64,000 nt of DNA from a virus (lineage: Duplodnaviria > Heunggongvirae > Uroviricota > Caudoviricetes): IMG/VR virus record IMGVR_UViG_2645727901_000008. The stretch is one strand, 5' to 3'. Within the stretch, counting starts at the first letter, position 1, and every line of letters starts with the position of its first letter. Under the pieces are notes generated by a model that had not been told where the DNA came from, made no database searches, and was given only the letters and a program-made list of their open reading frames with translations. Positions 1,462 to 7,302 of this stretch are shown here, piece by piece. Both the position numbers and the translations under genes were made by a program.

Positions 1462-1571
1462 CAAAATAGTGTCAACCACTTTTTGTGGATTTTATTTTTT
1501 GACCGAAATTTGGCCTAAATCATGTTGATGTAGTTAATTGTTTTTATAACATAAAACTTCATTTTGTTTAC

Positions 1572-2195
1572 ATGAAGGATGGTGTAGTGAAGTTAAGGGT
1601 TTTAGGGGCCGCGCTCGCGGCTATGTTGGGATGCGTATCTGCTAATACTGCCAATGCAACTGCGTTACCTGCACAATTCAGGGCAGGGCAGCAGGTTATG
1701 AATAATGCTGGTGGGGATCATTCACAAGCGGCCATTATGGACTTTTGCAAGAGGGAGGGCATTCCATTACGGCCTGTTGGAACTCAGTTTATTGGTAAAA
1801 CTGACTTTTGCGTTTTTGCATATACAGCATATCTGACGGACAAAGCTATAACAAAAACAGGTTATTCAACCAAAGATACTCTTTCCAGATTAAGTCAGGG
1901 ATGGCAGCAATTCGAAGTGTATCGCCAGCAAGGATTAGGTGAGTTATTGCAACCACTTTTTATGCTTGCGTTGGTGCCCGAGGGGCAGCAATTTTTGGTT
2001 AAAAAGGGAATGCTTCGCCAAAGTGATATTGCCGGGTTCGATAGCATGATGGCTTATGAGCGCAAACTAACCGAGCAGCGAAATAAAAAACCATCTGCTT
2101 CATGTGTGCAAAGTAAAACAGCAGAATACAGTGCAGTAGCCGGGCCTTTAGCCAAACAAATGGCAGAGCAATGGTGTAAAAAATACGGGCAATAA
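1572..2195 (+). CDS. secreted protein or lipoprotein, unknown function
   Basis: N-terminal signal peptide with MLGC lipobox-like motif (LGAALAAMLGCVSANTANA); RBS-like AGGATGG upstream. Confidence 0.6.
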   Translation: MKDGVVKLRVLGAALAAMLGCVSANTANATALPAQFRAGQQVMNNAGGDHSQAAIMDFCKREGIPLRPVGTQFIGKTDFCVFAYTAYLTDKAITKTGYSTKDTLSRLSQGWQQFEVYRQQGLGELLQPLFMLALVPEGQQFLVKKGMLRQSDIAGFDSMMAYERKLTEQRNKKPSASCVQSKTAEYSAVAGPLAKQMAEQWCKKYGQ

Positions 2196-2215
2196 GTTAC
2201 GCAGCGGAGGCAGAA

Positions 2216-2608
2216 TTGAAAAGATTGACTATTGCTTTACTGGCGTCTTTCCCTTTGATCGCGAGCGCCGGAAATTTACAAGTTAAGTGCGGTCGGTTTG
2301 ATATAAAAATCTATCCAGATGCCATATTTCTGAATGGGAATAAGGTTGATAACGTACACCGAAAAACTAAATCTGACGTAATGAGCTATGTGTTCCAGGA
2401 GTATGCGGAGATGGGGGGAACTTACACGCTGTACTCGCTGGATGTTCCTTCTCGCGGTGATATGACATTATCCCATCAATGGCAGAACGCCGATGGCGAA
2501 GCTCTGCGCGAAGTTAAAACAGAAAAATGCGGCACTTTCCATTCTTTTAAAGGGAAAGTGCCAAATGTTAAATCTGTGCTTGAAAAACAGCGCGCAGGTG
2601 ATTTTTAA
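2216..2608 (+). CDS. secreted protein, unknown function
   Basis: Signal peptide MKRLTIALLASFPLIASA; GGAGG RBS 7 nt upstream; 20 nt after the previous gene. Confidence 0.65.
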   Translation: MKRLTIALLASFPLIASAGNLQVKCGRFDIKIYPDAIFLNGNKVDNVHRKTKSDVMSYVFQEYAEMGGTYTLYSLDVPSRGDMTLSHQWQNADGEALREVKTEKCGTFHSFKGKVPNVKSVLEKQRAGDF

Positions 2609-2629
2609 ACTGCGTTAGCACTTTGAACA

Positions 2630-2680
2630 TGGCGACAACACATCTTGGTGGCTGCGTTGTCGCTGTATGTTTTTATAATA
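2630..2680 (+). terminator. terminator-like hairpin after the two secreted-protein genes
   Basis: GCGACAAC...GTTGTCGC stem followed by TGTATGTTTTTATAAT. Confidence 0.4.
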
Positions 2681-2696
2681 TAAAGCATTAAAGTTT

Positions 2697-3314
2697 TCAT
2701 TTTTGTCGGATCTTTTCCAGCATATTTAATTCATTATCACTTTCTGCTGCTGAGACGGTTGGCCTCACATTTCCGAAATATTTCCTGTGAGACTCATGAC
2801 TTATGTATTCACCGACAGTTTCATTCTTGAATATACGAATTTGACATATGCGAGATCCAACAATAAGTTCTACAGGGCTATTCCCATGATTAAATAACTC
2901 TAAAGATATACAGCCTCTGTACCCTGGTTGTATCATGGTATTTAATGAAAGACCAAGCCTTGTATAGCTGCTTCTGGACAATACATCAGCGTAGCAATCT
3001 GGTGGCAAACAAACATATTCTAATGTTGTTGCCAGTACCACTTGATTCGGGTAAACAATGAATCTATCCCCAAGATCTCTCCTTGTTTCCTGGAAAAATG
3101 TTCTGATTGGTTGATGAGTATCATTGTTTTTTGATGGAATTAACTCTATTGACGGCTTCCTTGTCATAATAGACACTAAAAAATCGTAACCAAGTCTAAG
3201 GTCTATGGTGAAGTTCCCAATTTGGTTTTTATTTAGAAGAGGTTCAATGAACAACGACTCAGGTTCTTCTGATTCATAATATTGCAGCAATTCAGCTTTG
3301 CTTAGGAGATTCAT
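2697..3314 (-). CDS. Dcd-type dCTP deaminase / dUTPase-fold protein (gene C of three-gene operon)
   Basis: Aligns by eye to E. coli Dcd across its conserved blocks: IDLRLG, SRSSYTRLGL (Ser/Arg motif), PGYRGCISLELFNHG (catalytic Glu context). Start ATG overlaps the stop of the upstream gene (ATGA); GGAG RBS. Confidence 0.85.
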   Translation of the reverse strand: MNLLSKAELLQYYESEEPESLFIEPLLNKNQIGNFTIDLRLGYDFLVSIMTRKPSIELIPSKNNDTHQPIRTFFQETRRDLGDRFIVYPNQVVLATTLEYVCLPPDCYADVLSRSSYTRLGLSLNTMIQPGYRGCISLELFNHGNSPVELIVGSRICQIRIFKNETVGEYISHESHRKYFGNVRPTVSAAESDNELNMLEKIRQK

Positions 3315-4384
3315 TGTGCACTCCATTTTTCAAGAATCATTACGTTTCGAATCGATTTTTCAACCAAATCATTTATAGTTTTTTCTATGGCTTCTTGTGA
3401 CAACCCAGACCATATACCCGTAGGTTTTTCCCATTCAGAGCATAAGTACTGCCAGCTGCTGTTAATAAAAGCATGCATTTCATTGTGGTCGCGAATAACA
3501 AAAGGACGCACATTATCAAAAGCTGATTTCACATCAAGCAAAGGTGTCGGCAATGTCAAACAAGGAGAAATAATCTGCCCACCATTATGTAAGGCTGATA
3601 TCACAGCATTGAACATGCCAACAACTGGATTTTCCACTTTGTTCAAAAAGTCGCTTACAATTTTAACTCTATCTTCTGTGGATGGGTGAGTATAGCTTGC
3701 AGGATGAGAGCCAGCTAATTTGTATAAGAAATCTACCCCACTTTTTCCAATAAATTGGGCACTAAATAGATCTGCAAAATATTCTCTGCAATGATTTATC
3801 CAAATAACATCAGGTAGATTACTCCATTCTGGTCCAGGAAGTGTGCCTTTGTCCTTGGAACGATAGTTAAGACAGGCAAGCTCAGAAATACCTTTGCTAA
3901 TATCAACGAAATGTCCCAATTCGTGATATAAAGGTATAGAGCATAATGGTCGTCTTCTGTACATTTCAGGTAATGAAATCTGAATTAATTCGACATCGAA
4001 TTTGACATTTAAAACTTCGTCAAATAAAGAATACAAATTCTTGTTTACAGACTTAAAATAAAACCCATGCATATCTGGAGATAGGGCTGTGGTTATAAGT
4101 GTTTTTTCACTTATCCATTTTTTACAGGCATCATTTAAGCAATAGACAATCTCGTAGGGAATTTTCTTTGTAGTACTGCCAGTGAAAAAATTAACTGCAT
4201 CGGTGATAAAAAAAGTACAATCCGCAATTATTTTATCAGCAACATTCACATGGTTTTCATAGAGCTTATCCACCGCTTCTTGTAGAACAGCAAGATATTC
4301 ATGCATGTCTTTAGAAAAATAGGGAGATTCTGATATCTCCCTTAGCTTATTTCGAACTAATGTAAGTTGTGTAAATGCAAGCAT
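3311..4384 (-). CDS. HExxH zinc metallopeptidase-like protein, ImmA/IrrE (M78)-like core (gene B)
   Basis: HELGH at residues 154-158 and downstream REYFADLFSAQF resembling the ImmA/IrrE E..AN.FA motif; N- and C-terminal regions have no recognisable domain. Start overlaps the upstream stop (TAATG). Confidence 0.8.
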   Translation of the reverse strand: MLAFTQLTLVRNKLREISESPYFSKDMHEYLAVLQEAVDKLYENHVNVADKIIADCTFFITDAVNFFTGSTTKKIPYEIVYCLNDACKKWISEKTLITTALSPDMHGFYFKSVNKNLYSLFDEVLNVKFDVELIQISLPEMYRRRPLCSIPLYHELGHFVDISKGISELACLNYRSKDKGTLPGPEWSNLPDVIWINHCREYFADLFSAQFIGKSGVDFLYKLAGSHPASYTHPSTEDRVKIVSDFLNKVENPVVGMFNAVISALHNGGQIISPCLTLPTPLLDVKSAFDNVRPFVIRDHNEMHAFINSSWQYLCSEWEKPTGIWSGLSQEAIEKTINDLVEKSIRNVMILEKWSAQ

Positions 4385-4689
4385 TAAATGTACTCTAATA
4401 CATTCCGGGCCATTACGGGTTCTAACATATCTTCGCTAGTTACTTTGGTTAGCACCTGGGCGAGCGCCTTAGTGTGGCGTATCTCTACCGCGAGCGAGAT
4501 GGACTCTCTGTGAGAAGGAATCTGTAATTGATCACCTTTATCTACACTTAAGTTTGAGGCTTCTCTGATCACCTCATAAACCCGTAACTTTAACTGCTGT
4601 GACACTTCTTGTTGAGATGCTATAAGCTGAAGTACAGTCTTGATCAACTTCAAAGAATCAGAAGCTTGCTGAGGAACCGCATAGAGCAT
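4384..4689 (-). CDS. small helical protein of unknown function (gene A, first in operon)
   Basis: 101 aa; strong AAGGAGG RBS 5 nt before the ATG; stop overlaps the start of gene B. Confidence 0.7.
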   Translation of the reverse strand: MLYAVPQQASDSLKLIKTVLQLIASQQEVSQQLKLRVYEVIREASNLSVDKGDQLQIPSHRESISLAVEIRHTKALAQVLTKVTSEDMLEPVMARNVLEYI

Positions 4690-4824
4690 AACCCCTCCTT
4701 TCCCTTATCTATAACCGCTTTCTTTTTTCTGTGTATGTTAAAAGTAGAAGCGGTTTTTACCTTTTGTAATATATATAGTGTCTAAAACTAACTTTGGCAC
4801 TATATATGGCATGATATCTATGTT

Positions 4825-4870
4825 TTAAAGACACAAAAGCTCTGTTAAAACAGAGCTTTTGTGTCTTTAA
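4825..4870. promoter_or_regulatory. perfect 22-bp inverted repeat (46-bp palindrome) in the operon's upstream region
   Basis: TTAAAGACACAAAAGCTCTGTT-AA-AACAGAGCTTTTGTGTCTTTAA, about 140-180 nt upstream of gene A; a second 10-bp inverted repeat (ATATATAGTG/CACTATATAT) lies at about 4771-4808. Confidence 0.5.
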
Positions 4871-5014
4871 CTTGATCATTTTCTCGCTGAAGTGTATGTC
4901 AGGCTTAGCTCATAATCAAGTTGCTTCCAAGCTAAAAATGAGCTAGCTCCCTGAAACACTAAGAGCGGGGTGTTTCATTTATTAGCGTTGGGCCTGACGG
5001 TGTGTAGGTGAATT

Positions 5015-5302
5015 TTAGCTCATTACTCGATAACGACGGGGAATGGAATTCTCCATCAGGCCACGAATTACTCCCGCCTCACGTAGTTCCTCTGTCTCCC
5101 AGTATCTGTTTGTCACCAGATCGAGGCTGGCTATGACCTTGTGCCGGTCATTCGGCATAGCTAATTTTTCTGCTATAACCATCAGTGAAAACTCTTCATC
5201 CAGTAGAATTTGATAGCAGTTTTTTGATAGTTCCACTTCCCTTATGAGACTGAAACGTCGCTGGATTGTGGCAGTAGAGTAAGTGAAATCTATTTTCTTC
5301 AT
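5015..5302 (-). CDS. hypothetical protein
   Basis: 95-aa ORF downstream of the Rha-like gene, same strand. Confidence 0.5.
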   Translation of the reverse strand: MKKIDFTYSTATIQRRFSLIREVELSKNCYQILLDEEFSLMVIAEKLAMPNDRHKVIASLDLVTNRYWETEELREAGVIRGLMENSIPRRYRVMS

Positions 5303-5361
5303 CGTGCGGAGAATCCGATTATTTAGCAGTTAAAGCCCCGGACAGGCCGGGGCAACAGTAA

Positions 5362-6288
5362 TTAACTAACAATCCAGTCCATAGCAACCATATCCTCTGG
5401 CGCTAAATCAATAGCATGGATTTTCCCATCCCGGATAGTGCGCCAGTGCTTCCTTGATCCGCCTTCGGGCCATACCCATACACCTTCAGACCATGAGGCG
5501 CGACGGCATACCGTTGCATATCCACTTCTGATCTTCTCTCTGGCGGTATGCAGTGACAGATTATCTTTTGGGATTTCCGGTAAAGGATGATGGATTGCCT
5601 GAAACAGCCCCATCTTGGGATGATACCAGCGTTTGTTGCGTGGTTCTGCCTCCGACATAACCTGCTTGAAGGCTTTCTGGAAGGGGGCCAGGGCCACAAT
5701 GGAGCGTCGCGCAAGCAAACCATCTGGAGTTAAAAACTCATGCGTATCGGTGGGAATCCGGAAAGCGTTAACCAGGTTGCGACATTTGGCTTCGGTCAGG
5801 CCACATTTCGCCGCCAGCTGGCGGTAGCCAATGTAGCCTTCCGGAATATTGCCTTTCTTTATTTGCTCGAGTGTTTCAGCGACCATCGATACTTGTGCTG
5901 ATACCTCGGCTACCTGGGCATTTACGGCGTTGATCCGGCGTTCATGCTCAAGATGCATTTGCGCCATTTCAGCCAGGATTTCGGCTTTTGATTTTAACTG
6001 TACCCGGGCATTCTCCAGTTCGCGCCAGCGGTCCACCAGCCGGGCGGTGAATTCGGGAGAGAGCTGCGCGACGACGACAATACTATCGCGCTTGCCTTGC
6101 TCGCCTTCGAAGACGTAATAGCTCGCCGGGCGGCCTGCGGTGGGCTTTTCCTCAATTTGAGGAAAAGATATTACGCCCCGTTCCGCCAGGTGTTCAATGG
6201 TGCGTTTAACGTTATCAGGGCGCTTACCTACCAGTTCCGCGATCTCAATGCTGGTCATTGTCGCTTTTTGAGAGATGGACAGATTCAT
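5362..6288 (-). CDS. Rha-family phage regulatory protein (antirepressor-like) fused in frame to a C-terminal DUF2829-like module
   Basis: N-terminal region matches the Rha-like protein at 43508..44215 (SIEIAELVGKR..DNVKRTIE, VFEGEQGKRDSI, YRIPTDTHEFLTP). The last ~70 aa match the separate 66-aa gene at 43311..43511 (CRR.SW..GVW.WP...DW). Confidence 0.8.
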   Translation of the reverse strand: MNLSISQKATMTSIEIAELVGKRPDNVKRTIEHLAERGVISFPQIEEKPTAGRPASYYVFEGEQGKRDSIVVVAQLSPEFTARLVDRWRELENARVQLKSKAEILAEMAQMHLEHERRINAVNAQVAEVSAQVSMVAETLEQIKKGNIPEGYIGYRQLAAKCGLTEAKCRNLVNAFRIPTDTHEFLTPDGLLARRSIVALAPFQKAFKQVMSEAEPRNKRWYHPKMGLFQAIHHPLPEIPKDNLSLHTAREKIRSGYATVCRRASWSEGVWVWPEGGSRKHWRTIRDGKIHAIDLAPEDMVAMDWIVS

Positions 6289-6503: not shown

Positions 6504-6700
6504 ATTGGCAGCCTCCTTTGACTAAGTTAAGGAGCTACCGCGTGAGGTTCCAATCTCAATGGCGGTAGCACTGACTGGGTTGGAACTACCGGCGTCAAAG
6601 GGAACCGGCCTGCCTTTCGGCAGCCCAGCCAGCACTACCATTGATCTCTGAGCTAAACGCTACGTATGGCTGTGCGATGGCATGACACAAAAAAAGACGC
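6504..6700 (-). ncRNA. candidate c4-like antisense/leader RNA region upstream of icd-like gene (copy 1)
   Basis: Minus-strand RNA contains CCCUUUGAC (about 6594-6602) complementary to GUCAAAGGAGG covering the icd-like SD (about 6512-6522); also a UAGCUCAG tRNA-like stretch. Confidence 0.3.
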
Positions 6701-6754
6701 TTTCGGCGTCTGTGTCGCCTTTGACATTATCCGGGGTTCCAATCCCGGCACCCG

Positions 6755-6777
6755 TTTTTCTAAGGTGCCGTAGAAAT
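6755..6777. promoter_or_regulatory. TTTCTA-N8-TAGAAA palindromic operator-like element upstream of immI-like copy 1
   Basis: cgTTTTTCTAAggtgccgTAGAAATAtacc; a related inverted arrangement sits upstream of copy 2 at about 44770-44800. Confidence 0.35.
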
Positions 6778-6983: not shown

Positions 6984-7302
6984 TTTGACACCCCCAGCGC
7001 GAGTAAAGAATGCAGATTATCGCGTGAGTGGCGGACAACGAGTGATGGGAAAAGACAGTAGCTGTTCATAGTGTAGTGACTCCTTGCTTTCGGAGCCGCC
7101 ATCGACTGTTCCACGGTCTGGTGGCGGCGCAATAAAGGCTGGAACACCGTGAGTCAACGGGGGCTTTTCAGCCACCTATATTGCACCGCCATAGGTATAG
7201 CGGCGGCAATAATACGAAAAACTAAACAGTTTGTCTCAAAAAGTTGACCGGTGTGCCAATCGGTAGTGAATGTACATCGGAGAAATTTACAATTCAACTT
7301 AA

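What the first reader, a model, noticed from the sequence alone, without database searches (positions are those of the whole stretch)
4771..4870. Perfect 46-bp palindrome plus a second inverted repeat upstream of the three-gene operon
A 22-bp perfect inverted repeat with a 2-nt centre, and ATATATAGTG/CACTATATAT nearby, sit 100-180 nt upstream of gene A. This is too long and AT-rich for a typical terminator and could be an operator for a dimeric regulator or a bidirectional control element.
Basis: seen in the sequence. Interest (0 to 1): 0.45.

Follow-up and report, generated by a model that had tools for sequence, protein, structure and literature searches.

The report
Conserved perfect-palindrome leader of accessory operon
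The 46-bp perfect palindrome is real. It is the first of three conserved hairpins between a conserved promoter-like motif and a mobile three-gene cassette (small protein, zinc-peptidase-like protein, dCTP-deaminase-like protein) on a D6/P1-like phage-plasmid, and related cassettes in other genera keep a perfect palindrome at the same spot even where its sequence has changed, so it is a structure-based control element rather than chance, a plain terminator or a classical operator.

Summary
Arms 4825-4846 and 4849-4870 are 22/22 complementary around a 2-nt centre, with 3e-8 such repeats expected per window. The second repeat, ATATATAGTG-N17-CACTATATAT, lies at 4771-4807.

Both repeats lie inside a 2.4-kb accessory cassette (window 2611-5027). 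The cassette sits between the pmgF-like gene and a phage gene of unknown function on a D6-like phage-plasmid, and only about 12 sequenced plasmids carry it.

The same operon (about 101 aa, an HExxH protein, a DCD-family protein) occurs in Dickeya, Pantoea, Proteus, Shewanella, Aeromonas and metagenomes. In eight distinct sequence variants a perfect 21-28-bp-arm palindrome sits 5-21 nt after the -10 of a conserved promoter-like motif (TTGATT-17-TACACT). Base changes are always mirrored in both arms, and one variant has an unrelated sequence.

The second repeat and a third hairpin also covary. Palindrome sequence does not track divergence of the operon proteins, which argues against a classical repressor/operator pair. 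A U-tract is missing in two variants, which argues against a plain terminator.

Best reading, about 45%: a cis-acting RNA hairpin at the 5' end of a roughly 195-nt structured leader that limits expression, kept perfect by DNA template switching. No transcript data exist, so the mechanism is inferred.

The parts
4825..4870 (-). Hairpin 1: the perfect palindrome, 22+2+22 nt (TTAAAGACACAAAAGCTCTGTT tt AACAGAGCTTTTGTGTCTTTAA on the operon strand). On the promoter reading it covers about +15 to +60 of the transcript.
   Evidence: Conserved as a perfect palindrome in eight distinct sequence variants, with mirrored changes.
4771..4807 (-). Hairpin 2: the second inverted repeat. Arms ATATATAGTG and CACTATATAT, 17-nt variable loop.
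   Evidence: Compensatory A-T to G-C and T-A to C-G changes occur in relatives, with G.U pairs on the operon strand. It folds better in the sense orientation in 8 of 10 lineages.
4713..4755 (-). Hairpin 3: AACCGCTT at 4748-4755 pairs with AAGCGGTT at 4713-4720, just upstream of the ribosome-binding site.
   Evidence: pair I19; z = -3.1. The metagenome relative L018 has CCGCCT/AGGCGG, a compensatory change. It is predicted in the minimum-energy fold of every leader.
4891..4919 (-). Conserved promoter-like motif: -35 TTGATT (4914-4919), 17-nt spacer, -10 TACACT (4891-4896). The inferred transcription start is near 4884-4885. An overlapping alternative is CTGACA (4897-4902), 16 nt, AATGAT (4875-4880).
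   Evidence: Hexamers with 17-nt spacing are found in all nine leaders that carry the palindrome. The alternative comes from the promoter scan. No transcript data exist, so the start site is inferred.
4692..4700 (-). Shine-Dalgarno sequence AAGGAGGGG of gene A.
   Evidence: Sequence read. Conserved as a purine-rich GG(A/G)GG core in the alignment. RNAalifold proposes an alternative pairing of this region with an upstream pyrimidine stretch.
4384..4689 (-). Gene A, 101 aa, function unknown. It is helical with pI 6.1.
   Evidence: (phrog_27938).
3311..4384 (-). Gene B, 357 aa, with an invariant HELGH motif (zinc-peptidase-like). It matches no Pfam, NCBIfam or PADLOC family.
2697..3326 (-). Gene C, 209 aa, dCTP deaminase-like (dUTPase fold family).
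   Evidence: PF22769, E = 1.3e-30. TIGR02274, 113 bits against a cut-off of 92.8.
2611..5027 (.). The accessory cassette: operon, leader and promoter-like motif, plus about 95 nt further upstream. It replaces 31 nt of the empty site found in related D6-like plasmids.
   Evidence: Homology to plasmid p98222 covers window 1500-2610 and 5028-5998 only.

Best explanation
The palindrome is the first of three conserved hairpins in a roughly 195-nt leader that the cassette carries with its own promoter-like motif. It begins 5-21 nt after the -10 hexamer, so on that reading it is transcribed at the very start of the operon RNA.

What has been selected is self-complementarity, not sequence. It most likely acts in cis as an RNA hairpin that limits productive expression of a potentially toxic nucleotide-depleting operon. 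Two ways are plausible:
- In the E. coli, Dickeya, Pantoea, Shewanella and Aeromonas versions, an apical GC-containing stem followed by a U-rich 3' arm gives a partial, attenuator-like terminator.
- In all long versions, an uninterrupted helix of at least 21 bp is the kind of substrate RNase III cuts.

Its perfection (no mismatch, no G.T) is best explained by DNA-level template switching between the arms. That process homogenises arms and flips the central spacer.

Shown: the repeat exists, it is conserved, its changes are mirrored, and its position relative to conserved promoter-like hexamers is fixed. Inferred: that it is transcribed, where transcription starts, and the molecular mode of action.
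For: 1. **Perfect palindromes recur at one position.** Eight distinct sequence variants have arms of 21-28 nt and loops of 0-5 nt at the same position, -196 to -104 relative to the gene A ATG. Changes at the base, the apex and, in Proteus, the interior are all mirrored. On alignment A4, 99.2% of cells are paired and 10 pairs changed on both sides, against 2.8 +/- 1.3 in shuffles (0 of 500 shuffles reach it). Slid controls give 27-64% paired.
2. **The sequence can be replaced.** Relative L099 has an unrelated 28+2+28 palindrome at the same place, while the second repeat keeps its motif.
3. **A promoter-like motif lies just upstream.** A -35/17-nt/-10 motif is present in all nine palindrome-bearing leaders.
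4. **The second repeat looks like sense-strand RNA.** It carries G.U pairs on the operon strand and folds better in sense in 8 of 10 lineages, which fits sense transcription of this region.
5. **All leaders fold alike.** Every minimum-energy fold gives the same three-hairpin layout.
6. **The Aeromonas relative keeps a plain terminator shape here.** Only an 8-bp stem plus UUUUUGCUCUUU remains at this leader position.
7. **The central spacer flips between close relatives.** The window has tt where L089, L090 and L018 have aa. L022 has AAAAA where L100 has TTTT(T). This matches the arm homogenisation and spacer inversion described for template switching (PMC8604942, PMC7202029).
8. **It is not a dispersed repeat.** The leader occurs only together with the cassette.
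9. **There is precedent.** The rnc 5' UTR hairpin is cleaved by RNase III to down-regulate its own message (PMC5371410).
Against: - No RNA data exist. The promoter-like motif is weak: 8 of 12 consensus positions in the window, below the scan's threshold of 9. The transcription start is inferred.
- No single RNA mechanism fits every lineage. Proteus and L099 lack a good U-tract, which goes against termination. The Aeromonas stem is only 8 bp, which goes against RNase III.
- The eight distinct palindromes together hold about 190 base pairs with no G.U pair at all. Pure RNA-level selection would not predict that. It needs the extra template-switching assumption, or it points to a DNA-level role.
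- About 50 more distant loci encoding the A-B gene pair have no such palindrome, so the system does not require it.
Confidence: 0.45

Rival explanations
1. DNA-level operator. The palindrome is bound by a symmetric dimer or tetramer, either a protein of the cassette or a host factor. It would block the promoter or act as a roadblock between about -1 and +60.
For: - The two-fold symmetry is perfect, and there is no G.T pair on either strand in any variant.
- The location, directly downstream of and adjacent to the conserved promoter-like motif, suits a repressor.
- Toxin-like operons are often autoregulated through palindromic operators. This is general knowledge recalled from memory, for example the long 'alternating palindrome' of the mazEF promoter.
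- The motif AAAGACAC occurs in the palindrome arm and again next to the second repeat in several lineages.
Against: - Symmetry is kept at every one of the 21-28 arm positions, including positions a protein would not contact.
- The sequence is replaced wholesale in L099.
- Arm divergence is decoupled from divergence of proteins A and B.
- No protein of the cassette matches a DNA-binding family in Pfam or NCBIfam, and A has pI 6.1.
- The cassette works in hosts from Escherichia to Shewanella, so a host-specific factor is unlikely.
Confidence: 0.22
2. Insulating bidirectional intrinsic terminator. Its main role would be to stop read-through from the upstream antirepressor/pmgF-like operon, and antisense transcription, so that the cassette is expressed only from its own signals.
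For: - The architecture is an A-tract, a stem and a U-rich tract: AAAAGCUCUG...CAGAGCUUUUGUGUCUUU.
- The Aeromonas homologue is a canonical terminator shape.
- Two distant relatives, from Hymenobacter and Janthinobacterium, have textbook bidirectional terminators at a similar distance upstream.
- No other terminator-like site on the operon strand lies between the pmgF-like stop codon (5015) and the operon.
Against: - It lies downstream of the conserved promoter-like motif, so it would also terminate the cassette's own transcripts. In that case the idea merges with the attenuator version of the main explanation.
- The terminator scan does not call it.
- The full stem is only about 32% G+C and is followed by AACAUAG.
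- The L099 and Proteus variants lack a U-tract.
- A terminator does not need 22-28 perfect pairs.
Confidence: 0.15
3. Cruciform or supercoiling-sensitive DNA switch. The perfect, AT-centred palindrome extrudes as a cruciform next to the promoter, and its state gates transcription.
For: - Watson-Crick-only perfection, loops of 0-5 nt and AT-rich centres (TTTTAA, TATATA, AAAAA) are what cruciform extrusion needs.
- The DNA hairpin energy is -22.4 kcal/mol.
- The spacer flips show that the arms interact at the DNA level.
Against: - There is no direct evidence.
- Palindromes of about 46 bp extrude poorly in vivo at normal superhelicity (general knowledge).
- Template switching alone explains the perfection.
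Confidence: 0.08
4. No function. The palindrome would be a self-perpetuating by-product of template switching that happens to sit in the leader.
For: - Template switching can create, extend and homogenise inverted repeats without selection (PMC8604942, PMC13100816).
- Most distant relatives of the operon lack it.
Against: - It persists at one position through divergence down to 56% identity in protein B across Escherichia, Dickeya, Pantoea, Proteus and Shewanella.
- It was replaced by an unrelated palindrome at the same site in L099.
- Palindromes of this length are prone to deletion, so keeping one implies selection.
Confidence: 0.07

Closest known systems
Bidirectional intrinsic (Rho-independent) terminators and leader attenuators
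   Same: An A-tract, a stem-loop and a U-rich 3' arm, identical on both strands. The element sits in a leader between a promoter-like motif and the first gene. The Aeromonas homologue has the plain terminator form.
   Different: The stem is 21-28 perfect pairs and AT-rich, and the complete hairpin is not followed by a U-tract. The L099 and Proteus variants have no usable U-tract. No alternative antiterminator pairing is evident.
RNase III-processed 5' leader hairpins (rnc and pnp leaders, lambda N leader; PMC5371410 for rnc)
   Same: A long, uninterrupted double-stranded RNA helix of about two turns or more sits at the 5' end of an mRNA. This would allow post-transcriptional down-regulation. 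The requirement is structural rather than for a particular sequence.
   Different: Known sites are usually imperfect helices with internal loops. Cleavage was not tested here. The Aeromonas relative has only 8 bp.
Palindromic operators of autoregulated toxin-antitoxin and defence operons (recalled from memory: mazEF 'alternating palindrome', CapW, BrxR and CapH sites)
   Same: An inverted repeat next to the promoter of an operon that encodes a potentially toxic effector together with a small first gene and a peptidase-like protein.
   Different: No DNA-binding domain was found in the cassette. The sequence is not conserved where the proteins are. Symmetry extends over the whole arm.
PeSL promoter/stem-loop cassettes of T4-type phages (PMC2839356, PMC4122927)
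   Same: A compact unit of promoter and stem-loop travels with accessory genes in a variable region of a phage genome.
   Different: PeSLs are short, repeated many times per genome and thought to mediate recombination. This leader is single-copy and found only with its own operon.
Quasi-palindrome template-switch mutagenesis (PMC7202029, PMC8604942)
   Same: It explains the mirrored substitutions, the absence of any mismatch and the inversion of the central spacer between close relatives.
   Different: It is a mutational mechanism, not a function. It does not explain why a palindrome is retained at this site.

Membership tests
Intrinsic (Rho-independent) terminator | A G+C-rich stem of about 5-14 bp with a short loop | tested here: inconclusive
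   The apical part, AGCUCUGU-UUUA-ACAGAGCU, has 8 bp with 4 G-C pairs. The whole 21-bp stem is about one-third G+C.
Intrinsic (Rho-independent) terminator | A run of U immediately 3' of the hairpin | tested here: not met
   The full hairpin is followed by AACAUAG, and the scan does not report the site. Only if the lower stem is left open is there UUUUGUGUCUUU. The L099 variant is followed by GGGUCAAUAU and the Proteus variant has UUAAUGCUUU.
Sequence-specific operator of a dimeric regulator | Two-fold symmetric half-sites | tested here: met
   Perfect inverted repeat.
Sequence-specific operator of a dimeric regulator | A recognition sequence that is conserved, or co-varies with the cognate protein, among homologous systems | tested here: not met
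   L099 has an unrelated palindrome with proteins A and B 51% and 57% identical. Dickeya and Proteus share 88% identity in A but 73% in the arm. The window and Dickeya share 64% in A but 95% in the arm.
Sequence-specific operator of a dimeric regulator | A cognate DNA-binding protein encoded nearby | tested here: inconclusive
   A, B and C give no match to any DNA-binding family in Pfam, NCBIfam or PADLOC. The model of A is low-confidence (pLDDT 55). Binding itself was not tested.
RNase III substrate | An uninterrupted double-stranded RNA helix of about 20-22 bp or more | tested here: met
   Arms of 21, 22, 22, 22, 22, 24, 24, 25 and 28 bp without a mismatch in the nine leaders. Not met in Aeromonas, which has 8 bp.
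RNase III substrate | Transcribed, and cleaved in vivo in an rnc-dependent way | not testable with these tools
   Only a conserved promoter-like motif upstream supports transcription.
Dispersed repeat (REP/BIME or MITE) | Many copies per genome in unrelated contexts | tested here: not met
   The leader is found only with the cassette, in 12 plasmids and 8 E. coli genomes. It occurs once in the window.
Integron attC site | At the 3' end of a promoterless cassette; an imperfect palindrome with extrahelical bases and a conserved core site | tested here: not met
   The element is 5' of the genes, downstream of a promoter-like motif, about 157 bp inside the cassette boundary and perfectly paired.
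Retron msr-msd | A reverse transcriptase gene directly downstream of the structured non-coding region | tested here: not met
   The downstream genes give no reverse-transcriptase hit. B is an HExxH protein and C is DCD-like.
Any Rfam family | A match at the curated score | tested here: not met
   Only chance-level matches cover 4759-4887 (E = 0.57 and 0.87, far below the gathering scores).

The most novel reading that the evidence does not exclude
The perfect palindrome is a protein-independent structural sensor. Its RNA form would be a substrate of at least 21 bp for RNase III. Its DNA form would be a cruciform or hairpin whose state depends on supercoiling or single-strandedness. Either form would change on phage infection and so switch on a previously undescribed nucleotide-depleting defence operon (small protein, new-fold HExxH protein, DCD-family deaminase) that rides a phage-plasmid hotspot.
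Probability: 0.1. Interest if true: 0.75.

Novelty: new member of a known kind. Interest (0 to 1): 0.42.

Why it matters
The cassette looks like an uncharacterised accessory system, probably for defence or addiction. It has moved between phage-plasmids and chromosomal islands of several genera.

Its effector is a dCTP-deaminase-like enzyme, so expression must be tightly set. The leader is the only control region that travels with the genes.

A hairpin whose pairing is conserved while its sequence turns over gives a clean, cheap experimental handle: compensatory arm mutants tested in wild-type and rnc backgrounds. That handle can show how such cassettes are kept silent or induced.

It is also a clear natural example of a palindrome kept perfect, with spacer flips, over long evolutionary distances.

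Tried and rejected
- **Known RNA family.** Rfam at E up to 1 gave only chance hits over the region.
- **Dispersed repeat (REP or MITE).** The leader occurs only with the cassette.
- **A leader peptide.** A 40-codon ORF at 4757-4879 on the minus strand spans both repeats, but its ATG is absent in the closest divergent relative L018 (AAAGGTC). Rejected.
- **The second repeat as a -10 element (TATAGT).** Relatives have TGTAGT, with the partner arm changed in step, so pairing rather than promoter function is conserved. The scan's TTAAAA-18-TATAGT site is therefore not supported.
- **TTGACA as the -35.** It is perfectly conserved in six enterobacterial variants, but it has no conserved -10 at 16-18 nt and is absent in Shewanella and L099. 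The TTGATT-17-TACACT reading fits all of them.
- **Retron, integron attC.** See the membership tests.
- **Conservation among close plasmids.** The palindrome is invariant in nine good assemblies, which is uninformative. The two pSa1423 records are riddled with indels and were not used.
- **Structure of the 101-aa protein.** pLDDT 55, so it is unusable for fold search.
- **Fold searches with the confident model of protein B.** No full-length relative in the PDB.
- **Defence-system libraries and literature.** PADLOC gave no hit. Paper searches did not find this three-gene system.
- **Scans for more relatives.** The metagenome and viral scans added only one new close variant.

Full report
**What the window is.** The region around the finding is the immunity region of a D6-like (P1-related) phage-plasmid of E. 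coli.
- A C4 antisense RNA lies at 6558-6645.
- An icd-like gene, a Rha-type antirepressor (5362-6288) and a pmgF-like gene (5015-5302) all lie on the minus strand.
- The 'three-gene operon' is also on the minus strand: gene A (101 aa, 4384-4689), gene B (357 aa, 3311-4384) and gene C (209 aa, 2697-3326).
- C is a dCTP-deaminase-like protein of the dUTPase fold family (PF22769, E = 1.3e-30; TIGR02274 above its cut-off).
- B has an invariant HELGH motif and matches no Pfam, NCBIfam or PADLOC family.
- A has no family beyond a PHROG of unknown function.

**The observation.**
- The palindrome is exactly as described: arms 4825-4846 and 4849-4870, 22 of 22 complementary, 2-nt centre.
- It is the best inverted repeat in the 64 kb. 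Chance expectation is 3e-8 per window, shuffles never exceed 11-nt arms, and the next perfect arm in the real window is 11 nt.
- It folds at -31 kcal/mol as RNA on either strand (z = -8.3 and -9.3) and at -22.4 kcal/mol as DNA.
- The second repeat, ATATATAGTG-N17-CACTATATAT at 4771-4807, is exact. It would not be remarkable alone, since about 1.3 such 10-nt pairs are expected per window. Its significance comes from conservation.

**The repeats belong to a mobile cassette.**
- Only about 12 of 99 related plasmids, and 8 of 5,426 complete E. coli genomes, carry the operon.
- Compared with a plasmid that has an empty site (p98222), window 2611-5027 replaces 31 nt between two convergent backbone genes.
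- The leader is never found without the cassette.
- Within nine good plasmid assemblies both repeats are invariant, which says nothing either way. Two error-laden records were set aside.

**Distant relatives are the informative ones.**
- Protein B has hundreds of relatives.
- The A-B-C gene order recurs in Dickeya, Proteus, Pantoea, Shewanella, Aeromonas and metagenomic contigs. Neighbours include integrases, AlpA, TniQ and HTH/M78 genes, so these are islands.
- Upstream of gene A, a perfect palindrome sits at the same distance in every member of the enterobacterial/Shewanella clade:

| Source | Arm + loop + arm (nt) | Left arm, or difference from the window |
|---|---|---|
| Window | 22+2+22 | TTAAAGACACAAAAGCTCTGTT |
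| L089, L090 | 22+2+22 | centre aa instead of tt |
| L018 | 24+2+24 | window arm extended by AG at the base; centre aa |
| Dickeya | 22+0+22 | apex TATATA |
| Pantoea L022 | 21+5+21 | base GATAAAG |
| L100 | 22+4+22 | same base as L022 |
| Proteus | 24+2+24 | TTTTTAAAGCATTAAGGCTCTATA |
| Shewanella | 25+4+25 | TATTATTAAGACATAAAAGCACTGT |
| L099 | 28+2+28 | CTCTGCCTGCATTATGATATAACGGCTA (unrelated sequence) |

- Not one mismatch or G.T pair occurs in any of them.
- On an alignment of eight leaders, 99.2% of cells pair and 10 pairs changed on both sides, against 2.8 +/- 1.3 in shuffles (0 of 500). Slid controls give 27-64% paired.
- Aeromonas keeps only an 8-bp stem plus UUUUUGCUCUUU, a plain terminator shape.
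- About 50 more distant loci with the A-B gene pair have no palindrome. One Nitrosomonas locus has an independent near-perfect one. Two loci have textbook bidirectional terminators at a similar distance.

**The surrounding architecture is conserved too.**
- Immediately 5' of the palindrome all nine leaders have a -35/17-nt/-10 motif: TTGATT-17-TACACT in the window (4919-4914 and 4896-4891), TAAACT in Dickeya, TTGTCA-17-TACACT in Shewanella and TTGTCT-17-TAAGCT in L099.
- The palindrome starts 5-21 nt after the -10, that is, at about -1 to +15 of the inferred transcript.
- The scan's CTGACA-16-AATGAT site overlaps this motif and would put the start at the first bases of the palindrome.
- The second repeat covaries (A-T to G-C in Dickeya and Pantoea, T-A to C-G in L100). 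It has G.U pairs on the operon strand and a loop that varies in sequence. It is more stable in sense than antisense in 8 of 10 lineages.
- A third hairpin before the ribosome-binding site also covaries.
- Every leader folds into the same three-hairpin layout.

**Weighing the readings.**
- *Classical operator.* It should keep a recognition sequence or change it together with its protein. Here arm divergence and protein divergence are decoupled:

| Comparison | Protein A identity | Protein B identity | Palindrome arm identity |
|---|---|---|---|
| Dickeya vs Proteus | 88% | 80% | 73% |
| Window vs Dickeya | 64% | 66% | 95% |
| L099 vs window | 51% | 57% | unrelated |

  Symmetry also holds at every arm position, and no DNA-binding domain is detectable.
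- *Plain terminator.* It is contradicted by the missing U-tract after the full stem, by the Proteus and L099 variants, and by the position downstream of the promoter-like motif.
- *What remains.* The common denominator is a long, perfect helix at the very start of the leader. I therefore favour a cis-acting RNA hairpin that limits expression, by partial termination where a U-rich 3' arm exists and/or as an RNase III-type substrate of at least 21 bp. The rnc leader is a precedent (PMC5371410).
- *The perfection.* The total absence of G.U pairs and the flips of the central spacer between close relatives are what template switching between inverted-repeat arms produces (PMC8604942, PMC7202029). 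They are also the main argument for a DNA-level role, as an operator or a cruciform, and I keep those as rivals.

**Comparison with known elements and novelty.** The element works like a leader hairpin or attenuator, and partly like a bidirectional terminator. It fails the defining tests for a terminator (U-tract), a conserved operator, a dispersed repeat, an attC site, a retron and any Rfam family. It is best filed as a new member of the broad class of structured 5' leaders, attached to an apparently undescribed three-gene system.

**Verdict.** Interest is moderate, at 0.42. The conservation pattern is striking and easy to test, but the kind of element is familiar and the mechanism is not shown.

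Noticed in passing
window 2697-4689 (minus strand): The three genes form a conserved module: an approximately 101-110-aa protein, an HExxH protein and, in the loci with gene calls that extend past gene B, a DCD-like protein. An A-like ORF precedes gene B in about 57 loci across Proteobacteria and Bacteroidota. The module is often in islands, it is absent from PADLOC 2.0, and paper searches did not find it. It is a candidate new defence or addiction system in a phage-plasmid hotspot.
   Followed up: partly
[not shown]
   Followed up: partly
IMG/VR loci L101-L217, for example L105 10800-10836 and L157 1643-1679 and 3542-3579: The exact arms of the second repeat (ATATRTAGTG ... CACTAYATAT) occur at least 120 times in viral contigs, mostly low-GC (about 33%) phage contigs; the two tested by BLAST resemble human-gut phages. 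The gap is 17-18 nt in 108 of 121 cases, there are 30 distinct loop sequences, the flanks are again complementary, 109 of 121 are intergenic, and many lie 11 nt after a gene end. This is a widespread hairpin element of unknown role that shares sequence and geometry with the cassette's second hairpin.
   Followed up: partly
window 4902-5024: Three copies of ATGAGCTAA or its complement TAGCTCAT flank and overlap the promoter-like motif, at 5015-5024, 4937-4945 and 4906-4913. A GAGCTAGCTC palindrome lies near 4941-4950. These are specific to the D6-like plasmids and are not conserved in other genera.
   Followed up: no
window 4778-4788 with 4822-4832, and 4860-4867: The loop of the second hairpin (GTGTCTAAAAC on the plus strand) is complementary to the end of the palindrome. 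The motif AAAGACAC recurs in the palindrome arm and next to the right arm of the second repeat in several genera. This could be an alternative pairing or a repeated protein site.
   Followed up: no
alignment A4 columns 135-141 with 205-211 (window about 4745-4753 with 4692-4699): RNAalifold proposes that a pyrimidine stretch (CCGCTTC or CTTTCTC) pairs with the Shine-Dalgarno sequence, as an alternative to hairpin 3. This hints at translational control.
   Followed up: no
window 6558-6645, 6690-6768 and 7117-7196 (minus strand): A C4 antisense RNA scores 77 bits and an isrK-like RNA scores 63 bits. A second, weaker C4-like match scores 40 bits, below the gathering score. This suggests a duplicated or degenerate immunity RNA.
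   Followed up: no
L097 324-542: In a more distant relative that lacks the palindrome, an Xre-type HTH gene sits directly upstream of gene A in the same orientation. Different lineages may use a protein regulator in place of the hairpin leader.
   Followed up: no
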